Source of the DNA: Bacteroidota bacterium
GTDB taxonomy: Bacteria; Bacteroidota; Bacteroidia; Bacteroidales; VadinHA17
Assembly (NCBI GenBank): GCA_030618105.1
Contig: JAUXED010000003.1
Coordinates: 1-54,445, forward strand
Reading direction: 5' to 3'
Length of the DNA: 54,445 nucleotides
Shown here piece after piece: positions 5,461 to 49,003 of the stretch; within the stretch, counting starts at the first letter, position 1; each line of letters starts with the position of its first letter. The notes beneath the pieces are model-generated. The model did not search any database and was not told where the DNA came from. It was given only the letters and a program-made list of their open reading frames with translations. The translations under genes were made by a program, and so were the position numbers.

Positions 5461-5890
5461 TGTTGTTGTTGTTCTGAGAAAGTCAGGCAATTGTCAGACG
5501 ACTGTGAATCTGTCGATTTCAGAACCGAGGACGGTTTTACCGGACGAACTCGCCGAAGACAATATCGATTAACGAATGTTGATTCTTAATTTGACTTCTT
5601 AAATCGTAAATCGTTAATCGATGTTCGATATTAATTATTAGTTTTCTAGATCCTTGTACCTTGAGTCTTGCTTCTTCTCTCCGTACCTCATACCATTTCA
5701 TTAACCGGCATTTATTATTATGTTAAACAGAACTCTTTTAACCCTATATACAACCCTATATATAACCCTGGACATCAACCTATTATTTATCAAACCTATA
5801 ATATACTGATATGCAATTACTTACAAGCATGATTATGAAAAATAACGTTATTAATAACGGCATTAATTACGTTATTAATAACGTAATTAT
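5461..5890. repeat. Patchwork of short tandem oligomer arrays in an ORF-free region
   Basis: (gtt)n at 5461-5475. aatcg-type units at 5601-5630 lie inside the inverted repeat aatatcga/tcgatatt (5562-5569 / 5625-5632). aaccctata units at 5740-5800. ttattaataacg units at 5841-5890. Confidence 0.7.
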
Positions 5891-12174: not shown

Positions 12175-12350
12175 CCAGTTGCCAACTTGCTAACTGTTTT
12201 CCATGTTATTCAATTAATATGGGCTAAAGCCCTATTGAGTTGGTTGTATTCATAATCCGTCAGCTAAAGCAGACGGCAATCCAGGTCAGATAAAAAACCG
12301 CTTGCAAATAGCTGACTGATTGCCAACTGCCAATTTGCCAACTGCCAACT
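12175..12350. repeat. GCCAACT-type oligomer arrays flanking two GCTAAAGC-loop hairpins
   Basis: cagttgccaacttgctaactg (12175-12196). gggctaaagccc (12221-12232). ccgtcagctaaagcagacgg (12257-12276). tgccaactgccaatttgccaactgccaact (12321-12350). Confidence 0.7.
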
Positions 12351-21126: not shown

Positions 21127-21245
21127 AAGAAGTAAGTAGTATGTAGAATGTAGTATGTAGTAAGAAGAAAGAGGTGAGTTCGGAAGGATGAAGTAAGAAG
21201 TAGCCGGAAGAACCAGTAACCAGTAACCAGTAACCAGTTGAAATG
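21127..21245. repeat. Tandem oligomer arrays downstream of pfkA
   Basis: gtagtatgtagaatgtagtatgtagtaagaag, then ccagtaaccagtaaccagtaaccag. The arrays give rise to several spurious minus-strand ORFs. Confidence 0.75.
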
Positions 21246-33071: not shown

Positions 33072-33431
33072 CTAATAGAGGTGTTCATCCCTCATAATCA
33101 GAGCATAATAATCATCATCCAGAATTTTATATCCTTGCTCATAGCAGAAATAACACACCTCTCCGTTTTTTATAGTATAGGTATTTGTATGAAATTGAAA
33201 ATTGTACCCCAGAACTATCAGTTGATCTTTATGAACTTTTGTATTACCGTCAGGATTCAGATCAGCAAGTATTCTTCTGTTTTTACGAAGGATATTATGA
33301 ACATTACGAATAAAATTAATATCATCCCTGTTCATCTCATTATGGTAACTGTTCCGGCACTGATCTGAACAGAATTTCTTATCCGATCGACCTCTCAGGG
33401 GTTCATTACATTCAAGACATCTCCGTTCCAT
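33072..33431 (-). CDS. Zinc-ribbon hypothetical protein
   Basis: About 119 aa from MERRCLECNEPL...FCSDQCRN (Cys4). The ORF-track N-terminal extension to 33482 looks spurious. Confidence 0.5.
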   Translation of the reverse strand: MERRCLECNEPLRGRSDKKFCSDQCRNSYHNEMNRDDINFIRNVHNILRKNRRILADLNPDGNTKVHKDQLIVLGYNFQFHTNTYTIKNGEVCYFCYEQGYKILDDDYYALIMRDEHLY

Positions 33432-33595
33432 AACAATTAAAGTTTTCTTAAAAATACAAAATAAACCTGTTATATACGACATTAAACGTTTACAAACGAC
33501 TATAAACGTTTAATAACCGAATACGGTCGTGTTGATGTTGTTAATTTGATCATGATAAAAACAATTTATTTATTAACATCAAAATTTTTAAAATC

Positions 33596-33940
33596 ATGCA
33601 AAACTTAAAAAACAAAGTTAATCTTATCGGAAACCTGGGAATGGATCCTGAAGTTAAGAAATTGGAAAACGGCAGTTCCCTTGCCAAATTTTCACTTGCC
33701 ACATCAGACAGTTATAAAAACAAAGATGGCGAAAAAGTTAAAGAAACCCAATGGCATAATCTTGTTGCGTGGGGACCTAAAGCAGAATTTGTAGAAAAGT
33801 ACCTTAAGAAAGGTCAGGAAATAGCTGTTGAAGGAAAATTGACACACAGGTCATATGAAAACAAGGAAGGGAAAAAGCAGTATATCACTGAAGTTGTTGT
33901 AAATGAGGTGCAAATGCTGCGTTCACCGAACAATGCATAG
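33596..33940 (+). CDS. ssb: Single-stranded DNA-binding protein, short form without acidic tail
   Basis: 114-aa OB fold (NKVNLIGNLGMDPEV...TQWHNLVAWG...VEGKLTHRSYE). Ends in RSPNNA with no acidic C-terminal tip. Confidence 0.85.
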   Translation: MQNLKNKVNLIGNLGMDPEVKKLENGSSLAKFSLATSDSYKNKDGEKVKETQWHNLVAWGPKAEFVEKYLKKGQEIAVEGKLTHRSYENKEGKKQYITEVVVNEVQMLRSPNNA

Positions 33941-33963
33941 CAACATTGTAATTATTATCAAAT

Positions 33964-33993
33964 GTCGGAACCTGACAGGTTCCGGCATTTTTT
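33964..33993 (+). terminator. Rho-independent terminator of ssb
   Basis: cggaacc/ggttccg stem with loop tgaca, followed by gcatttttt. Confidence 0.8.
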
Positions 33994-34094
33994 ATTAGGC
34001 GGGCAGTTCAAAGCAGCCCCCTATAATTAAAAAATTAGCTTAATCTTTAGCTTTGTCTTCAAATTGCCAATTGCTAATTACAAACTGCCAACTT

Positions 34095-36425
34095 TTATTC
34101 AAGTCGCTTGTTAAGTTCGTTGAACAGATGGGAAAAATTATCCCTGGTTTCTTCATCCAGGTCACCCCATTTCAATTTTGAATCCTTAACCTCGCGCATA
34201 AAATTTGATGCAAGAATTGAGCGTGACAAATTATTAGAACTAATATACTCTGAATTTGATTCGGGAATCCCTATTCGTTTATGAAGAATATATTTCTTAA
34301 AGTCGATAGTAGAAAACATATCTTCAATACTTTTGAAATGGTCGAGTTGGATAAGCTTTTTATTTGCCTGGTCTTCATTATTGGCAAAAAGATGTTTAGT
34401 AAGATCATGCTTCAAATCATCACCTTCTTTATTTGCTCCTGTAAGTACCAGGAAATCAATTCCCCAACCAAGTAACATATTAACAAGGCTACTGATATTT
34501 GATACTCCTGTAGCAGGCAGGTAAAAAACCTGTTTTTCAAAACTTTTCATGTCGGTAAGAGCTTTCATATAATAGAAAGTAGTAATATCTTCAAGAATAA
34601 TATTGTTTTTTTTCTGGATAAACTTTTGTTCAGACAGTCTTATTCCCATTAATGAATAAATAGGCGACAATGTATCTGTTGAAGCTGTAGTAAGTGATTT
34701 TGCATCAAATATTTTAGTTTCGCTTAACTCATCCTCTTCAACAGCTCGCTGAACGGCAAGCAGCCTGTACAATTTATTTAAATCGATAAGATGAGGGGAA
34801 TGGGTTGTATAAATAATCTGGACTTTTTCTTTAATATTATCGAATACTTTCAATACATCTTCCTGAGCCCTGGCATGGAGACTTACTCCGGGTTCATCAA
34901 TCAGGATTACAATATCGTTTCCATTTTTGGCTAAAGCTGCTGCCTGTAATTCAAGGTAAAATGATAGAAACCAACGTACACCCCTGCTTCTTTGTTTTGG
35001 ATAAAGACGTTCTTCCCTGTCTTTTATCCAGAATTCAATATATGGCAGTCCGCTTTTATCCGGGTTGGTATTATCATAATGTTCAAGCTCAAAATTGATT
35101 TTTATTTTATTATGCTTACCAATACTTTGACGCCAGTAATCCTGGAAATTTATTGTTATCTCTTTATTTAACTTTTCAATTTTTTGTTTCAGGATACGGT
35201 TGTTGGTTTGTTGAAAGAAGTCTTCATCAAGACCAGATACCAGGAGAAAGCTTCTGGCTGCTTTATAGCCTTCAATATTGGTGTTTTCTGTATGAATATC
35301 ATGCAGATCGATACGATCAGGAAGAAGACTTAAGAAATCTTCGAAAAATATGAATTCGGGAACATAGTTAAAAAGTTTTCTTCCTGCTTCTTCCAGAGAA
35401 TAGTATTTATCGATATGAGGTTTCTCTTTCTTGACTTCATTCAAAACCTCATCAATACTATTCCCGGACAGAACTTTGAAAGCAACCATTTTCTTACGGA
35501 TTGCATCTTCTTTACTCCGTTCATACTCACGTAGTATTCTAACATAAGTTTCGTTACTTGAATCAAGCTGAGTTCGTGAAGCCCTGCGCTCCTTTTCATT
35601 ATATGATATATCAAAAATACGCTGGCATTTTTGAAGTTCTTTATACGAATTCTCAAGTTCTTTTTTGTTTATCAGGAATTTCTTTTTTGCCTGGATACTC
35701 TTACGGGCTAAATCTGCATTTTCTGAAAGTTTGCGAGCTTCAGAAACTTTTATTTCAGCATCTTTTCCTGCTGCCACATGATTATTCCTGCATTCTTCCA
35801 GATATTTTTTTGCACCGGTTAAATTATCTTTTATTACTTCCTTACTTTTATCATCTTTTATTGATTTGATTTTTTTCTGCATCTGGGTTATCTTTTCCCT
35901 GGCAGCTTCAAGTTCCTGGTGTTTTTCTTCTTTTTCAAAAAAAGCTTTTTCTGCTGTTCTGACAGCATTATCATGTTCATTAATAGCTTCTTCTATTCTT
36001 TCTCTGATATTTATTTCTTCTTTCTCTCTTTTATCATAAAACCTTTTATATATCTTCAGAATTTCATCTTCAGCCAGCTCAATATGACTTGTTATATCTT
36101 CCGCCCATGATCTCTTGAGAAAAATGATTTCTTTTTTCTTAATTTCATCAATCACTCCACCCGGTAGTATTTTCTCATTCAATTCTTTTTCAACATCAAC
36201 CTTTACAATCTCGAAAATGCAATGCACACAAGGCAAGCTAAGATCACTACGCAAAATATCTTCAGATATAGTACCGGTATAAAAGCTGTTAAGGGCTTCC
36301 AGTATTGAAGTTTTGCCTGATTCATTCTGGCCAATTAATCCGGTAATATTATCCGGTGACAGATAAGTCCAGCCTGTATCAATAATTGACCGGAAGTTTT
36401 GTATTCTAAACCCAGTTAATTTCAT
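34095..36425 (-). CDS. SMC-like ABC ATPase with long coiled-coil insert and TOPRIM/DUF4435-like C-terminal region
   Basis: 776 aa. N-terminus MKLTGFRIQNFRSI. Walker A GQNESGKTS. About 200 aa of Lys/Glu-rich heptad-like insert. Signature-like RSRGVRWFLSF. Walker B VILIDEPGVSLH. H-loop TTHSP. C-terminal NIILEDITTFYY ... IDFLVLTGANKEGDD. Confidence 0.8.
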   Translation of the reverse strand: MKLTGFRIQNFRSIIDTGWTYLSPDNITGLIGQNESGKTSILEALNSFYTGTISEDILRSDLSLPCVHCIFEIVKVDVEKELNEKILPGGVIDEIKKKEIIFLKRSWAEDITSHIELAEDEILKIYKRFYDKREKEEINIRERIEEAINEHDNAVRTAEKAFFEKEEKHQELEAAREKITQMQKKIKSIKDDKSKEVIKDNLTGAKKYLEECRNNHVAAGKDAEIKVSEARKLSENADLARKSIQAKKKFLINKKELENSYKELQKCQRIFDISYNEKERRASRTQLDSSNETYVRILREYERSKEDAIRKKMVAFKVLSGNSIDEVLNEVKKEKPHIDKYYSLEEAGRKLFNYVPEFIFFEDFLSLLPDRIDLHDIHTENTNIEGYKAARSFLLVSGLDEDFFQQTNNRILKQKIEKLNKEITINFQDYWRQSIGKHNKIKINFELEHYDNTNPDKSGLPYIEFWIKDREERLYPKQRSRGVRWFLSFYLELQAAALAKNGNDIVILIDEPGVSLHARAQEDVLKVFDNIKEKVQIIYTTHSPHLIDLNKLYRLLAVQRAVEEDELSETKIFDAKSLTTASTDTLSPIYSLMGIRLSEQKFIQKKNNIILEDITTFYYMKALTDMKSFEKQVFYLPATGVSNISSLVNMLLGWGIDFLVLTGANKEGDDLKHDLTKHLFANNEDQANKKLIQLDHFKSIEDMFSTIDFKKYILHKRIGIPESNSEYISSNNLSRSILASNFMREVKDSKLKWGDLDEETRDNFSHLFNELNKRLE

Positions 36426-36462
36426 ATGTTTATAATTTATTTTTTAATGGTCATATAACCTG

Positions 36463-36674
36463 TCCCGACATTGTCGGGATAGCTCACATGACAAAATTTA
36501 ATCATCCCACTGTGTGCCAAAATAGTCGGCAATCTTCAGTCGGCAGTCAGCAATCTGAAGACCACGGTATATACTTTTCAGTCCCGATTTATCAGGAATA
36601 TGATTAAGTATGTGTTTTATTTGTTTGATTATTATTTGCTTTTTTGCCGACTGTGGACTGTGGACTGCCGACTG
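36463..36674. repeat. Hairpin plus inverted GTCGGCA-type oligomer arrays
   Basis: tcccgacattgtcggga (36463-36479). agtcggcaatcttcagtcggcagtcagc (36524-36551) faces gccgactgtggactgtggactgccgactg (36646-36674) in inverted orientation. Confidence 0.7.
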
Positions 36675-36685
36675 ATTAGTTACAA

Positions 36686-37510
36686 TTAATCTATTCTAAC
36701 GCCTATAACAAGAACATCATCTACCTGCTCAAAATCCATTTTCCAGTCACTAAAAGATGATTCAAGTATTCCTTTCTGTTCCTTCATGTTTTTTTTATGG
36801 ATTTCAAGCAATAGATTCTTAAATGGTTTGTATTTGAATTTTTTTTCCTTCGGGCCTCCGAACTGATCGGGAAAACCATCGGTGAAGATGTATAAGACAT
36901 CTCCTTTTTTCATTTTTACAACGTTATTTTTGAATGACTTCTCCTCGATACCACTTACCCCGATAGGCATTTTGTCCGGTTTTATTTCATATAAAATATT
37001 CTGGCGGATATAATATAGCGGGTTATTTGCACCGGAGTATTGTAACTCTTTTGTTTTTCTGTTATAGATGCAGAAAGCAATATCCATTCCATCTTTCGAT
37101 TCACCTCCCCGACCTGTTTGATGCAATGATTTCATGATCTTTTCCCTCAATTGATTAAGTATTCTGTTTGCTTTATGATTATCTGCTTCACTTACAATTT
37201 CATTAAGTGAAGTAATACCTAAAATACTCATCAATGCACCAGGTACACCGTGCCCGGTGCAATCAACTGCTGCAAACAAAATATTTTCTTCCTGTTCGGA
37301 AATCCAGTAAAAATCACCACTAATTATATCTTTTGGAAGATAAAGAATAAAGTTATTGTGTAAAGATTTGCGGATTGATGATAGTTGAGGTAATAAAGCA
37401 GTCTGAATAAGACGGGCATATTCAAGACTTTCAATTATTTCTTTTTTTTGTCTTGAAATTTCATCCTTTTGCTTCAGCAACTTCTGATATAACTTATTGT
37501 CCTGTGACAT
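36686..37510 (-). CDS. PP2C/SpoIIE-family serine phosphatase
   Basis: SGDFYW, AVDCTGHGVPGALMS, FTDGFPDQFGG. I place the start at MSQDNK (37510); the ORF-track start is 37591. Confidence 0.85.
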   Translation of the reverse strand: MSQDNKLYQKLLKQKDEISRQKKEIIESLEYARLIQTALLPQLSSIRKSLHNNFILYLPKDIISGDFYWISEQEENILFAAVDCTGHGVPGALMSILGITSLNEIVSEADNHKANRILNQLREKIMKSLHQTGRGGESKDGMDIAFCIYNRKTKELQYSGANNPLYYIRQNILYEIKPDKMPIGVSGIEEKSFKNNVVKMKKGDVLYIFTDGFPDQFGGPKEKKFKYKPFKNLLLEIHKKNMKEQKGILESSFSDWKMDFEQVDDVLVIGVRID

Positions 37511-37667
37511 GAAAATGGTGGATTTCTTGAATTTTGACAGGTCACAATATACAAAAAAATGAATTAAAATGAGACTAGCGAAAGACTTCAATTAATAGAA
37601 AAATTATCTATTATTATAATTATCTCATGGCTCATAATTATAGTTCAGGATAATGTGTAGTTATTTT

Positions 37668-37777
37668 GGAACATTGGAATATTGGAATATTGGAATGTTG
37701 GCATAATATAACATAAGTTTAAACCCTCAATTTTTTCTTCTTCCCATCATTCCACTATTCCATATTTCCATCATTCC
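37668..37777. repeat. Inverted GGAATAT-type heptamer arrays
   Basis: ggaacattggaatattggaatattggaatgttgg (37668-37701) faces cccatcattccactattccatatttccatcattcc (37743-37777). Together they can form a long imperfect hairpin. Confidence 0.7.
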
Positions 37778-48869: not shown

Positions 48870-48880
48870 TCAATAAAAAA

Positions 48881-49003
48881 GTTGGCAGTTGGCAATTAGC
48901 AGTTGGCAGTCGGCAAAGAACAATCAACAGTCGGCCCGCCCGTACCGAACGCCCGCCTGACCGGACGGGCAGGGTACGTTTGGGCGGGCAGTCGGCAGTC
49001 GAC
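48881..49003. repeat. GGCAGT arrays flanking a very GC-rich nested hairpin
   Basis: gttggcagttggcaattagcagttggcagtcggc. Then gcccgcccgtaccgaacgcccgcctgaccggacgggcagggtacgtttgggcgggc (48934-48989). Then cagtcggcagtcgac. Confidence 0.7.

What the first reader, a model, noticed from the sequence alone, without database searches (positions are those of the whole stretch)
34095..36425. Stand-alone SMC-like ABC ATPase fused to a degenerate TOPRIM/DUF4435-like tail (OLD-like or fused-PARIS-like defence candidate)
The 776-aa protein has a complete ABC ATPase set: Walker A GQNESGKTS, signature-like RSRGVRWFLSF, Walker B ILIDEPGVSLH and TTHSP. A ~200-aa Lys/Glu-rich coiled-coil insert splits this set. 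The ~200-aa C-terminal region begins NIILEDITTFYY and contains IDFLVLTGANKEGDD. That layout resembles the TOPRIM/DUF4435 nucleases fused or paired with such ATPases in the OLD, Gabija GajA and PARIS AriA-AriB families. However, the canonical DxD appears to be replaced (TGAN). The gene looks lower in GC than its neighbours, is monocistronic, and is bracketed by repeat arrays (34055-34094 and 36463-36674). It lies between a tail-less ssb and a PP2C gene.
Basis: partly seen in the sequence, partly recalled or inferred. Interest (0 to 1): 0.62.

Follow-up and report, generated by a model that had tools for sequence, protein, structure and literature searches.

The report
Phosphatase-partnered OLD-type ATPase, nuclease site eroded
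This gene encodes a relative of the OLD anti-phage ATPase-nucleases that has gained a long coiled coil, lost two key metal-binding residues of its nuclease site, and is always paired with a small protein-phosphatase gene and inherited like ordinary chromosomal equipment, so it looks like a defence-type machine re-used as a switch for a phosphatase, not a mobile defence gene.

Summary
Its tail is a true OLD-type Toprim. About 600-aa relatives align over residues ~340-776; 29 of 76 hit Pfam OLD-like_TOPRIM, and their profile matches Thermus class 1 OLD (6p74) at 7.8e-23. The tail is still under purifying selection (dN/dS 0.07-0.21).

The gene is not stand-alone: a sensor-less SiaA-type PP2C gene lies immediately upstream on the same strand in 22 of 22 assessable genomes. 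The flanking repeat arrays are a genome-wide habit. The GC content is ordinary.

The pair occurs in 7 of 7 genomes of the genus and 15 of 18 other genera of the family, always single-copy, among metabolic genes. The short relatives have no PP2C partner and sit in defence islands. No PARIS (DUF4435) signal was found.

Best reading (about 0.5): an OLD-type ATPase re-used as the regulatory partner of a phosphatase that feeds the genome's SiaB/SiaC switches. I found no published description of this pairing. An active, PP2C-linked defence system is not excluded.

The parts
34095..36425 (-). Gene for the 776-aa OLD-like ABC ATPase with coiled-coil insert and Toprim-type tail (P0001); stop codon at 34095-34097
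36069..36425 (-). ATPase head, N-terminal half (residues 1-119), including Walker A GQNESGKTS (36306-36332)
   Evidence: dN/dS 0.15-0.27
35421..36068 (-). Coiled-coil insert (residues 120-335; helices 120-188, 192-273, 277-319). It is absent from the ~600-aa short-form relatives.
   Evidence: dN/dS 0.18-0.78
34701..35420 (-). Conserved middle region plus C-terminal half of the ATPase head (residues 336-575). It holds the signature RSRGVRWFLSF (34959-34991), Walker B (34893-34910), the H-loop TTHSP, and a highly conserved but poorly modelled segment at residues 420-480.
   Evidence: dN/dS 0.06-0.16
34098..34700 (-). OLD-type Toprim-like tail plus C-terminal helices (residues 576-776). It keeps E612 (34590-34592), S699-I-E701 and R735.
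   Evidence: dN/dS 0.07-0.21
34431..34439 (-). Codons 663-665 (G-A-N), at the position of the family's D-x-D metal-A ligands (Ts OLD D431/D433)
36426..36685 (-). 260-bp spacer between the PP2C and ATPase genes, unusually long for this module. It contains short tandem oligomer arrays (36645-36674) and a CCCGACAnTGTCGGG hairpin (about 36463-36485). There is no exact Bacteroidota TAnnTTTG box.
   Evidence: orthologous gaps are 6-83 bp or a 4-nt overlap
36686..37510 (-). Partner gene: a sensor-less SiaA-type PP2C/SpoIIE phosphatase of 274 aa, counted from ATG 37510. The ORF is open back to TTG 37591, but orthologs start at the ATG.

Best explanation
SHOWN
- The gene is a derived member of the OLD family of ABC-ATPase + Toprim proteins.
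- Its nearest relatives are ~600-aa single-gene proteins that resemble class 1 OLD and lie in defence islands.
- One branch acquired a ~200-aa coiled-coil insert and a fixed upstream partner, a sensor-less SiaA-type PP2C phosphatase.
- That branch became a single-copy, largely vertically inherited chromosomal pair in some families of environmental Bacteroidales.
- In this branch the metal-A ligands of the Toprim site (the DxD) have been lost many times independently. The window's lineage has G663 and N665.
- The ATPase motifs, the rest of the tail and the phosphatase all stay under strong purifying selection.

INFERRED
- The ATPase/Toprim-like protein no longer acts mainly as a two-metal nuclease. 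It acts as the ATP-driven sensing or regulatory subunit of the phosphatase, standing in for the N-terminal sensor domain that the genome's other SiaA-type PP2Cs carry.
- On binding its cue (probably a nucleic-acid or nucleotide state, given its ancestry) it switches the PP2C on or off.
- The PP2C then dephosphorylates a SiaC-type phosphoprotein of the SiaB/SiaC partner switches encoded elsewhere in the genome.
For: OLD ancestry
- Pfam AAA_15 and the PADLOC Old model extending to residue 662.
- Foldseek on the full model: GajA 8u7i at 6e-10 and Ts OLD 6p74 at 6.8e-9.
- Foldseek on the tail-only model: best hit is 6p74, prob 0.96, TMq 0.43.
- 29 of 76 short relatives hit OLD-like_TOPRIM, best 1.5e-6.
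- The short-form profile matches 6p74 at 7.8e-23, with the family Glu on Ts E377 and the DxD on Ts D431/D433.

Fixed PP2C partner
- Present in 22 of 22 assessable genomes, plus three metagenome contigs.
- The two genes overlap by 4 nt in G008.

State of the two proteins
- The PP2C keeps all its metal motifs.
- The PP2C is a SiaA catalytic domain only: 6k4e at 8.3e-51, and NCBIfam SiaA model positions 395-658 of 658.
- Among 137 long forms, 50 lost both Asp of the DxD and 22 lost one. None of 25 short forms lost the first Asp. There are at least 11-15 state changes on the tree.
- dN/dS of the tail is 0.07-0.21 within the DxD-less genus.

Inheritance
- 7 of 7 genomes in the genus, 15 of 18 other genera in the family, and 28 of 401 genomes across the order, clustered by family and always single-copy.
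- Shared synteny with another genus.
- Short forms lack the PP2C and sit beside restriction-modification, GmrSD, Vsr and MutH genes.

Substrate candidates
- The genome has 4 SiaC proteins and a SiaB-family kinase next to one SiaC.
- All 24 module-bearing genomes have SiaC. All 9 SiaC-less genomes lack the module. Fisher p = 7e-5, not corrected for phylogeny.

Precedent
- Cran1 is a non-defence, vertically inherited OLD (PMC12796447).
Against: - No physical or functional link between the two proteins was tested. Adjacency shows only that they work together, not which one regulates the other.
- Loss of metal A need not kill the enzyme. The Ts OLD triple metal-A mutant (E377A/D431A/D433A) is 12-15-fold weaker but still nicks (PMC7049728). 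The window's protein keeps E612, S699-x-E701 and R735.
- About half of the long forms sampled keep a complete site and the same PP2C partner, so the ancestral paired module may well be an active nuclease system.
- The SiaC co-occurrence is confounded by phylogeny, and SiaC genes are never adjacent to the module.
- The tail-only structural match is weak (E 0.044).
Confidence: 0.5

Rival explanations
1. An active, undescribed two-gene anti-phage (abortive-infection type) system: a PP2C-linked class of OLD. The ATPase senses infection. The Toprim-like tail still cuts DNA or RNA using its remaining metal-B site, or the PP2C is the toxic or regulatory effector. The pair simply happens to be stably inherited in these lineages.
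For: - All the closest characterised relatives are defence proteins.
- Short-form relatives lie in defence islands.
- Many long forms keep the full E/DxD/E/(K,R) set.
- Ts OLD metal-A mutants still nick.
- The tail is under purifying selection.
- At order level the distribution is patchy between families, 28 of 401 genomes.
Against: - Single copy and near-universal within the genus and family.
- Neighbours are metabolic genes, and synteny is shared between genera.
- No full-length copy on phages or plasmids.
- Repeated loss of catalytic Asp residues with no loss of the gene.
- The PP2C matches no PADLOC model.
- The composition is native.
Confidence: 0.25
2. A housekeeping DNA-transaction or chromosome-maintenance factor, Rad50/SMC-like or Cran1-like. 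Its activity is tuned by the adjacent PP2C through dephosphorylation of the ATPase itself.
For: - The head-plus-coiled-coil architecture resembles Rad50/SMC heads.
- Inheritance is vertical and core-like.
- Cran1 shows that an OLD-family protein can be an essential cell-cycle factor with a conserved operon partner.
- SSB and a zinc-ribbon gene lie nearby in two genera.
Against: - Absent from most families of the order and from 3 of 18 other genera of its own family, so it is not essential.
- No hinge or zinc hook at the coiled-coil apex.
- Cran1 keeps nickase activity, whereas here the metal-A site erodes.
- The SSB adjacency is not conserved in other genera.
Confidence: 0.15
3. A fused PARIS (AriA-AriB) or Gabija-type system, as the first reader suggested as an alternative.
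For: PADLOC AriA models hit the ATPase part at 5.7e-25. That model is the generic AAA_15 profile. GajA chains are the top Foldseek hits.
Against: - The tail has no DUF4435 or AriB hit, even at E<=10.
- The relatives' tails hit OLD-like_TOPRIM.
- No GajB/UvrD-type helicase lies next to the gene in any locus.
- AriA chains score far below OLD and GajA.
Confidence: 0.03
4. A decaying remnant: a former defence gene on its way to becoming a pseudogene.
For: Loss of the DxD. The window's copy is separated from the PP2C by an expanded spacer.
Against: - The 776-aa frame is intact in the genus orthologs held at full length (G001, G005, G006); only the G003 copy carries two in-frame stops.
- dN/dS is 0.11-0.30 overall and 0.07-0.21 in the tail.
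- All ATPase motifs are invariant.
Confidence: 0.02

Closest known systems
Class 1 OLD nucleases (Thermus scotoductus OLD, PDB 6p74; phage P2 Old)
   Same: - N-terminal ABC ATPase with a helical insert, followed by a C-terminal Toprim.
- The best sequence-profile and fold matches.
- The family Glu and DxD align with Ts E377 and D431/D433.
- An R or K at the basic catalytic position is compatible.
   Different: - The insert is expanded into a ~200-aa coiled coil.
- There is a fixed PP2C operon partner, whereas class 1 genes stand alone in variable neighbourhoods.
- The DxD is lost in the window's lineage.
- There are extra C-terminal helices.
- The gene is chromosomal, single-copy and largely vertically inherited.
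~600-aa short-form relatives of the same family (e.g. P0143, P0165, P0225)
   Same: - 35-45% identical over residues ~340-776.
- They share the unusual conserved middle region and the tail.
- They have the same Walker, signature and H-loop motifs.
   Different: - No long coiled coil and no PP2C partner.
- They keep E, DxD, E and K; the first Asp and the Lys are invariant.
- They sit in defence islands.
Cran1 / 'class 5' OLD of Sulfolobales (PMC12796447)
   Same: An OLD-family ATPase that is vertically inherited, has a conserved operon partner and appears not to be a defence gene.
   Different: - It is archaeal.
- Its partner is a membrane protein, not a phosphatase.
- Cran1 is essential and retains potent nickase activity.
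- No sequence with this family's GQNESGK Walker A is in the held part of that paper's dataset.
SiaA of the Pseudomonas aeruginosa SiaABCD network (PDB 6k4e)
   Same: The partner's PP2C domain matches 6k4e at 8.3e-51 and the NCBIfam SiaA model at 178 bits. SiaB-family kinase and SiaC genes exist in the genome.
   Different: - It has only the catalytic domain (model positions 395-658 of 658) and no sensor part.
- It is not adjacent to siaB, siaC or siaD.
- It is adjacent to an OLD-like ATPase instead.
Gabija GajA and PARIS AriA/AriB
   Same: An ABC ATPase of the same broad clade, combined with a Toprim nuclease.
   Different: - No GajB helicase partner.
- The tail is not DUF4435.

Membership tests
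OLD family (ABC ATPase + Toprim) | N-terminal ABC-type ATPase with Walker A, signature, Walker B and H-loop | tested here: met
   AAA_15 at 4.5e-25. The motifs are invariant in 31 homologs. Foldseek matches OLD and GajA.
OLD family (ABC ATPase + Toprim) | C-terminal Toprim-fold domain homologous to the OLD Toprim | tested here: met
   - The query's tail alone gives no Pfam hit.
- 29 of 76 homologous short forms hit PF20469.
- Their profile aligns through the Toprim of 6p74 at 7.8e-23.
- The tail model's best PDB hit is 6p74, prob 0.96, TMq 0.43, E 0.044.
OLD family (ABC ATPase + Toprim) | Metal-A ligands: the Toprim Glu plus the DxD (Ts E377, D431, D433) | tested here: not met
   E612 is present, but the DxD is G663-A-N665.
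OLD family (ABC ATPase + Toprim) | Metal-B ligands (Ts D381, S478, E480) and the basic residue (R/K487) | tested here: inconclusive
   S699-I-E701 and R735 are conserved and plausible equivalents. The +4 acidic position is T616, with D613 beside it. The register in this region was not fixed by superposition: HMMER's alignment ends at Ts 475.
Class 1 OLD | Stand-alone gene in variable neighbourhoods | tested here: not met
   A PP2C gene lies upstream in 22 of 22 assessable genomes.
Class 2 OLD / Gabija (class 4) | Adjacent UvrD/PcrA/Rep-like helicase (GajB in Gabija) | tested here: not met
   No helicase flanks the gene in the window or in 10 related loci.
Class 3 OLD (retron-associated) | Adjacent reverse transcriptase and ncRNA | tested here: not met
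   No RT gene is among the neighbours. No ncRNA search was run.
PARIS (AriA + AriB, or fused AriAB) | DUF4435-type Toprim effector | tested here: not met
   The tail gives no Pfam or PADLOC hit at E<=10. Among the 25 most widely matched Pfam families of the 76 short relatives, the only Toprim family is PF20469; DUF4435 is not among them.
SMC/Rad50 | Long antiparallel coiled coil ending in a hinge or CxxC zinc hook | tested here: not met
   The arms are only ~70-80 residues, and the apex at 186-195 (KKIKSIKDDK) has no Cys.
SiaA (partner gene) | PP2C catalytic domain of SiaA type with intact metal motifs | tested here: met
   6k4e at 8.3e-51. NF038263 at 178 bits. The motifs are invariant.
SiaA (partner gene) | Full-length architecture with an N-terminal sensor region, and a siaABCD operon | tested here: not met
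   Only model positions 395-658 of 658 are matched, and the score is below the 700-bit cut-off. The siaB/siaC pair lies on another contig.
Anti-phage defence system (generic) | Protects against phage; patchy, mobile or island-associated distribution | not testable with these tools
   Protection cannot be tested here. The distribution argues against a typical mobile system.

The most novel reading that the evidence does not exclude
An OLD-type immune ATPase/Toprim has been exapted as a detachable, ATP-driven nucleic-acid (or nucleotide-state) sensor for a SiaA-type PP2C phosphatase. In these Bacteroidales, DNA damage or invading DNA would then be read out not by cutting but by dephosphorylating SiaC-type switch proteins, and so by reprogramming cell physiology. 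This would be a PP2C-coupled class of OLD-family systems in which the nuclease site is becoming dispensable.
Probability: 0.3. Interest if true: 0.8.

Novelty: new variant of a known kind. Interest (0 to 1): 0.55.

Why it matters
OLD-family ATPase-nucleases are known almost only as anti-phage weapons. The single published exception I found, archaeal Cran1, showed that they can be taken over for cell biology.

This is a bacterial branch in which the same scaffold is locked to a protein phosphatase, is inherited like a core gene, and is repeatedly shedding its catalytic aspartates while staying under selection. If the ATPase controls the phosphatase, it would be a clear case of an immune sensor rewired into phospho-signalling. 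It would also give a new kind of input to SiaB/SiaC-type partner switches.

The natural series of DxD-intact and DxD-less orthologs makes this directly testable.

Tried and rejected
- **Tail alone against Pfam and PADLOC at E<=10:** nothing.
- **Tail profile against PDB sequences:** only a spurious hit, Telomerase-associated protein 82 at 4e-4 with no shared motifs. I disregarded it.
- **Tail-only Foldseek:** no hit below 1e-3. The top hit, 6p74, serves only as supporting evidence.
- **First synteny script:** failed because I looked for one file per locus (L007.fa). Several loci are stored together in one file, as later showed.
- **Pfam scan of A2:** I repeated it on A4.
- ** dN/dS values are invalid:** the wrong strand was read. 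One search replaces them.
- **The look-up of sequencing runs was closed:** co-transcription across the 260-bp spacer could not be tested.
- **Promoter and terminator scan:** not above the shuffled expectation. There is no exact TAnnTTTG box in the spacer.
- **Placing the family in the U1-U11 clades of PMC12796447:** no sequence with the family's Walker A is in the held supplement text, which may be truncated.
- **Readings rejected:** fused PARIS, Gabija, class 2 or class 3 OLD, pseudogene, and a mobile island bounded by repeats.
Full report
**Observation.** The ORF at 34095..36425 on the minus strand is real and encodes 776 aa. Pfam AAA_15 covers residues 1-547 (4.5e-25). Generic Old, AriA, GajA and PtuA models of PADLOC hit the ATPase part, and the Old model reaches residue 662. 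An AlphaFold2 model built on 31 homologs is confident (mean pLDDT 82.5). It shows an ABC head split by three long helices (120-188, 192-273, 277-319), followed by a beta-alpha-beta-alpha-beta-alpha unit from residue 608 and C-terminal helices.

**What the tail is.** On its own the tail hits nothing in Pfam or PADLOC, even at E<=10. The family settles the question.
- More than 1,700 homologs exist. The closest ~120 are 772-784 aa and 47-93% identical over their full length.
- Their consensus in the tail is KKNNxILED...GWGLDFIVxLDDDxEG...SIEDLFSTIDFKK.
- An exhaustive search found about 500 relatives below 1e-30. Most are ~570-650 aa proteins that align with residues ~340-776 and lack the long coiled coil.
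- These short forms carry textbook OLD motifs, NVILEE/VEGI and DDDxxGR.
- 29 of 76 short forms hit Pfam OLD-like_TOPRIM, best 1.5e-6.
- Their profile matches the Thermus scotoductus class 1 OLD (6p74) at 7.8e-23. The alignment runs through the Toprim and puts the family Glu on Ts E377 and the DxD on Ts D431/D433.
- Foldseek on the full model ranks GajA (8u7i, 6e-10) and 6p74 (6.8e-9) first.
- A separate tail-only model (pLDDT 85.4) again has 6p74 as its best hit, but weakly (prob 0.96, TMq 0.43, E 0.044).

I conclude that the tail is an OLD-type Toprim, not a DUF4435/AriB domain.

**What has been lost, and what has not.** In Ts OLD the active site is defined as follows (PMC7049728):
- metal A is bound by E377, D431 and D433;
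- metal B is bound by D381, S478 and E480;
- an Arg or Lys (R487) completes the site.

The window's protein keeps E612, S699-I-E701 and R735, but has G663 and N665 in place of the DxD. The first Asp is at least 90% conserved across 104 diverse relatives and invariant in the short forms.

Of the 137 long forms I hold, 65 keep both Asp residues, 22 have lost one and 50 have lost both. None of 25 short forms has lost the first Asp. On a FastTree phylogeny built without those columns, the long forms make a well-supported clade (100). DxD status changes at least 11-15 times within it. This is a quick tree with long-branch warnings, so the count is approximate.

The site is therefore eroding repeatedly in this clade. 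It would still be an over-statement to call the protein nuclease-dead. The Ts OLD triple metal-A mutant is 12-15-fold weaker but still nicks, and only combined A+B mutants are inactive.

The DxD-less tail is not decaying. Within the genus, where every member lacks the DxD, dN/dS of the tail is 0.07-0.21. That is as low as the ATPase head and lower than the coiled coil (one search read the wrong strand and is void).

**The gene is not stand-alone.**
- In the window a SpoIIE/PP2C gene (36686-37510) lies upstream on the same strand.
- In relatives the same pairing recurs with gaps of 17 bp (G005), 62 bp (G023), a 4-nt ATGA overlap (G008) and adjacency in another family (G031).
- It also recurs with gaps of 83, 28 and 6 bp in three metagenome contigs whose ATPases keep an intact DxD.
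- Comparing the coordinates from two whole-genome searches, a stand-alone 270-300-aa SpoIIE ORF is immediately upstream in 22 of 22 genomes where this can be judged. Two more are cut by contig ends.
- The short forms have no such partner. They lie next to Eco57I/XhoI restriction-modification genes, or next to GmrSD, HNH, Vsr, Dcm and MutH genes.
- The PP2C keeps all its metal-binding motifs.
- The PP2C is a SiaA-type catalytic domain without any sensor part: PDB 6k4e at 8.3e-51, and NCBIfam SiaA model positions 395-658 of 658.
- It matches no PADLOC model.

**Inheritance.**
- The ATPase is present once in all 7 genomes of the genus (78-96% identity), in 15 of 18 other genera of the family (41-60%), and in 2 of 16 other families sampled.
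- Across 401 genomes of the order it is present in 28, always single-copy. These cluster in about a dozen families with several positive members each.
- Flanking genes are metabolic. One other genus shares wider synteny with the window: 2-hydroxyacid dehydrogenase, the pair, Asp/Glu racemase, a zinc-ribbon gene and SSB.
- There is no full-length copy in 50,697 phage or 72,556 plasmid records. Only partial matches at 23-32% identity, covering the region shared with the short forms, appear there.
- GC (0.342 against 0.362) and GC3 are ordinary.
- The flanking 'repeat arrays' belong to a genome-wide habit of short tandem oligomers in intergenic spacers.
- Only the 260-bp spacer between the two genes is unusual for the module. 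It holds such arrays and a hairpin but no exact Bacteroidota -7 box.

**Mechanism.** Two things are shown: a fixed PP2C + OLD-like ATPase pair, and an eroding metal-A site in a tail that remains under selection. The rest is inferred.
- These genomes hold 5-68 SpoIIE domains, mostly at the C-termini of 600-1500-aa proteins. The partner is the sensor-less one.
- The window's genome has four SiaC-family proteins (109-151 bits; none in 14 control genomes). One of them is preceded by a SiaB-family kinase (159 bits against a cut-off of 85) with no phosphatase beside it.
- All 24 module-bearing genomes have SiaC, and all 9 SiaC-less genomes lack the module. Fisher p = 7e-5. This is not corrected for phylogeny and is no more than consistent with the model.

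I therefore favour, at about 0.5, a model in which the ATPase/Toprim-like protein serves as the sensing or regulatory subunit of the PP2C, and the PP2C acts on SiaC-type switch proteins.

The main rival (0.25) is an active PP2C-linked OLD defence system. About half of the long forms keep a complete site, and metal-A loss need not abolish nicking. A Cran1-like DNA-maintenance role (0.15) is also open. Cran1 is a published precedent for a vertically inherited, non-defence OLD with a conserved operon partner (PMC12796447).

**Novelty.**
- Full-text searches found no paper that links SpoIIE or PP2C with OLD/Toprim ABC-ATPase systems.
- The one preprint that mentions both terms lists PP2C only as a label in unrelated candidate systems.
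- The pair meets none of the definitions of OLD classes 1-4, nor that of Cran1's class 5.
- Earlier notes of this scan describe the same module in at least a dozen other genomes, with the same reading. They are unchecked AI notes. I re-derived each claim I use here.

Noticed in passing
window 34962-35165 (residues ~420-488 of the ATPase): The stretch NFQDYWRQ...NFELEHYD...PYIEFWIKD...PKQRSRG is among the most conserved parts of the protein, with many invariant residues shared with the short forms. AlphaFold2 models it with pLDDT of only 49-61 and almost no secondary structure. It may be a ligand-binding or partner-binding element that folds only in a complex.
   Followed up: no
G000 contigs C102, C177, C179, C133 (L025-L028) and 10 SpoIIE loci: This 2.4-Mb genome carries 4 SiaC-family genes, at least one SiaB-family kinase and 10 SiaA-type PP2C domains. 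Relatives have up to 21 SiaC and 68 SpoIIE copies. None of 14 well-known control genomes has SiaC. This is a strongly expanded SiaB/SiaC-type partner-switch network in environmental Bacteroidales.
   Followed up: partly
window, about 50 sites, e.g. 5841-5889, 12320-12350, 21131-21238, 37666-37705, 48880-48915: Short tandem arrays of 6-16-nt units, with a different unit at each site, occupy many intergenic spacers. The two that flank the ATPase gene belong to this genome-wide pattern.
   Followed up: partly
window 33960-33990 (+): A strong 14-bp-stem hairpin followed by a T-run lies directly after ssb. It is a convincing intrinsic terminator between the convergent ssb and ATPase genes.
   Followed up: no
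window 37511-37591 (-): The PP2C ORF is open 27 codons upstream to a TTG, but orthologs begin at the ATG at 37510 (MSQDNKLYQ...). The longer start is probably not used.
   Followed up: partly
window 33072-33940 and L019 9158-10216: A Cys4 zinc-ribbon gene (weak DUF2116/zf-FCS) and a short SSB lie within 2 kb of the PP2C-ATPase pair in two different genera of the family, but not in others. This may be plain inherited synteny or a loose functional link to DNA transactions.
   Followed up: partly
L021 5001-11435; L023 525-7246: Short-form relatives of the ATPase sit in clear defence islands (Eco57I-like and XhoI-like restriction-modification genes; GmrSD, HNH, Vsr, Dcm, MutH). Together with the invariant E/D/E/K set of the short forms, this makes them good candidates for an uncharacterised single-gene OLD-type defence clade.
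   Followed up: partly
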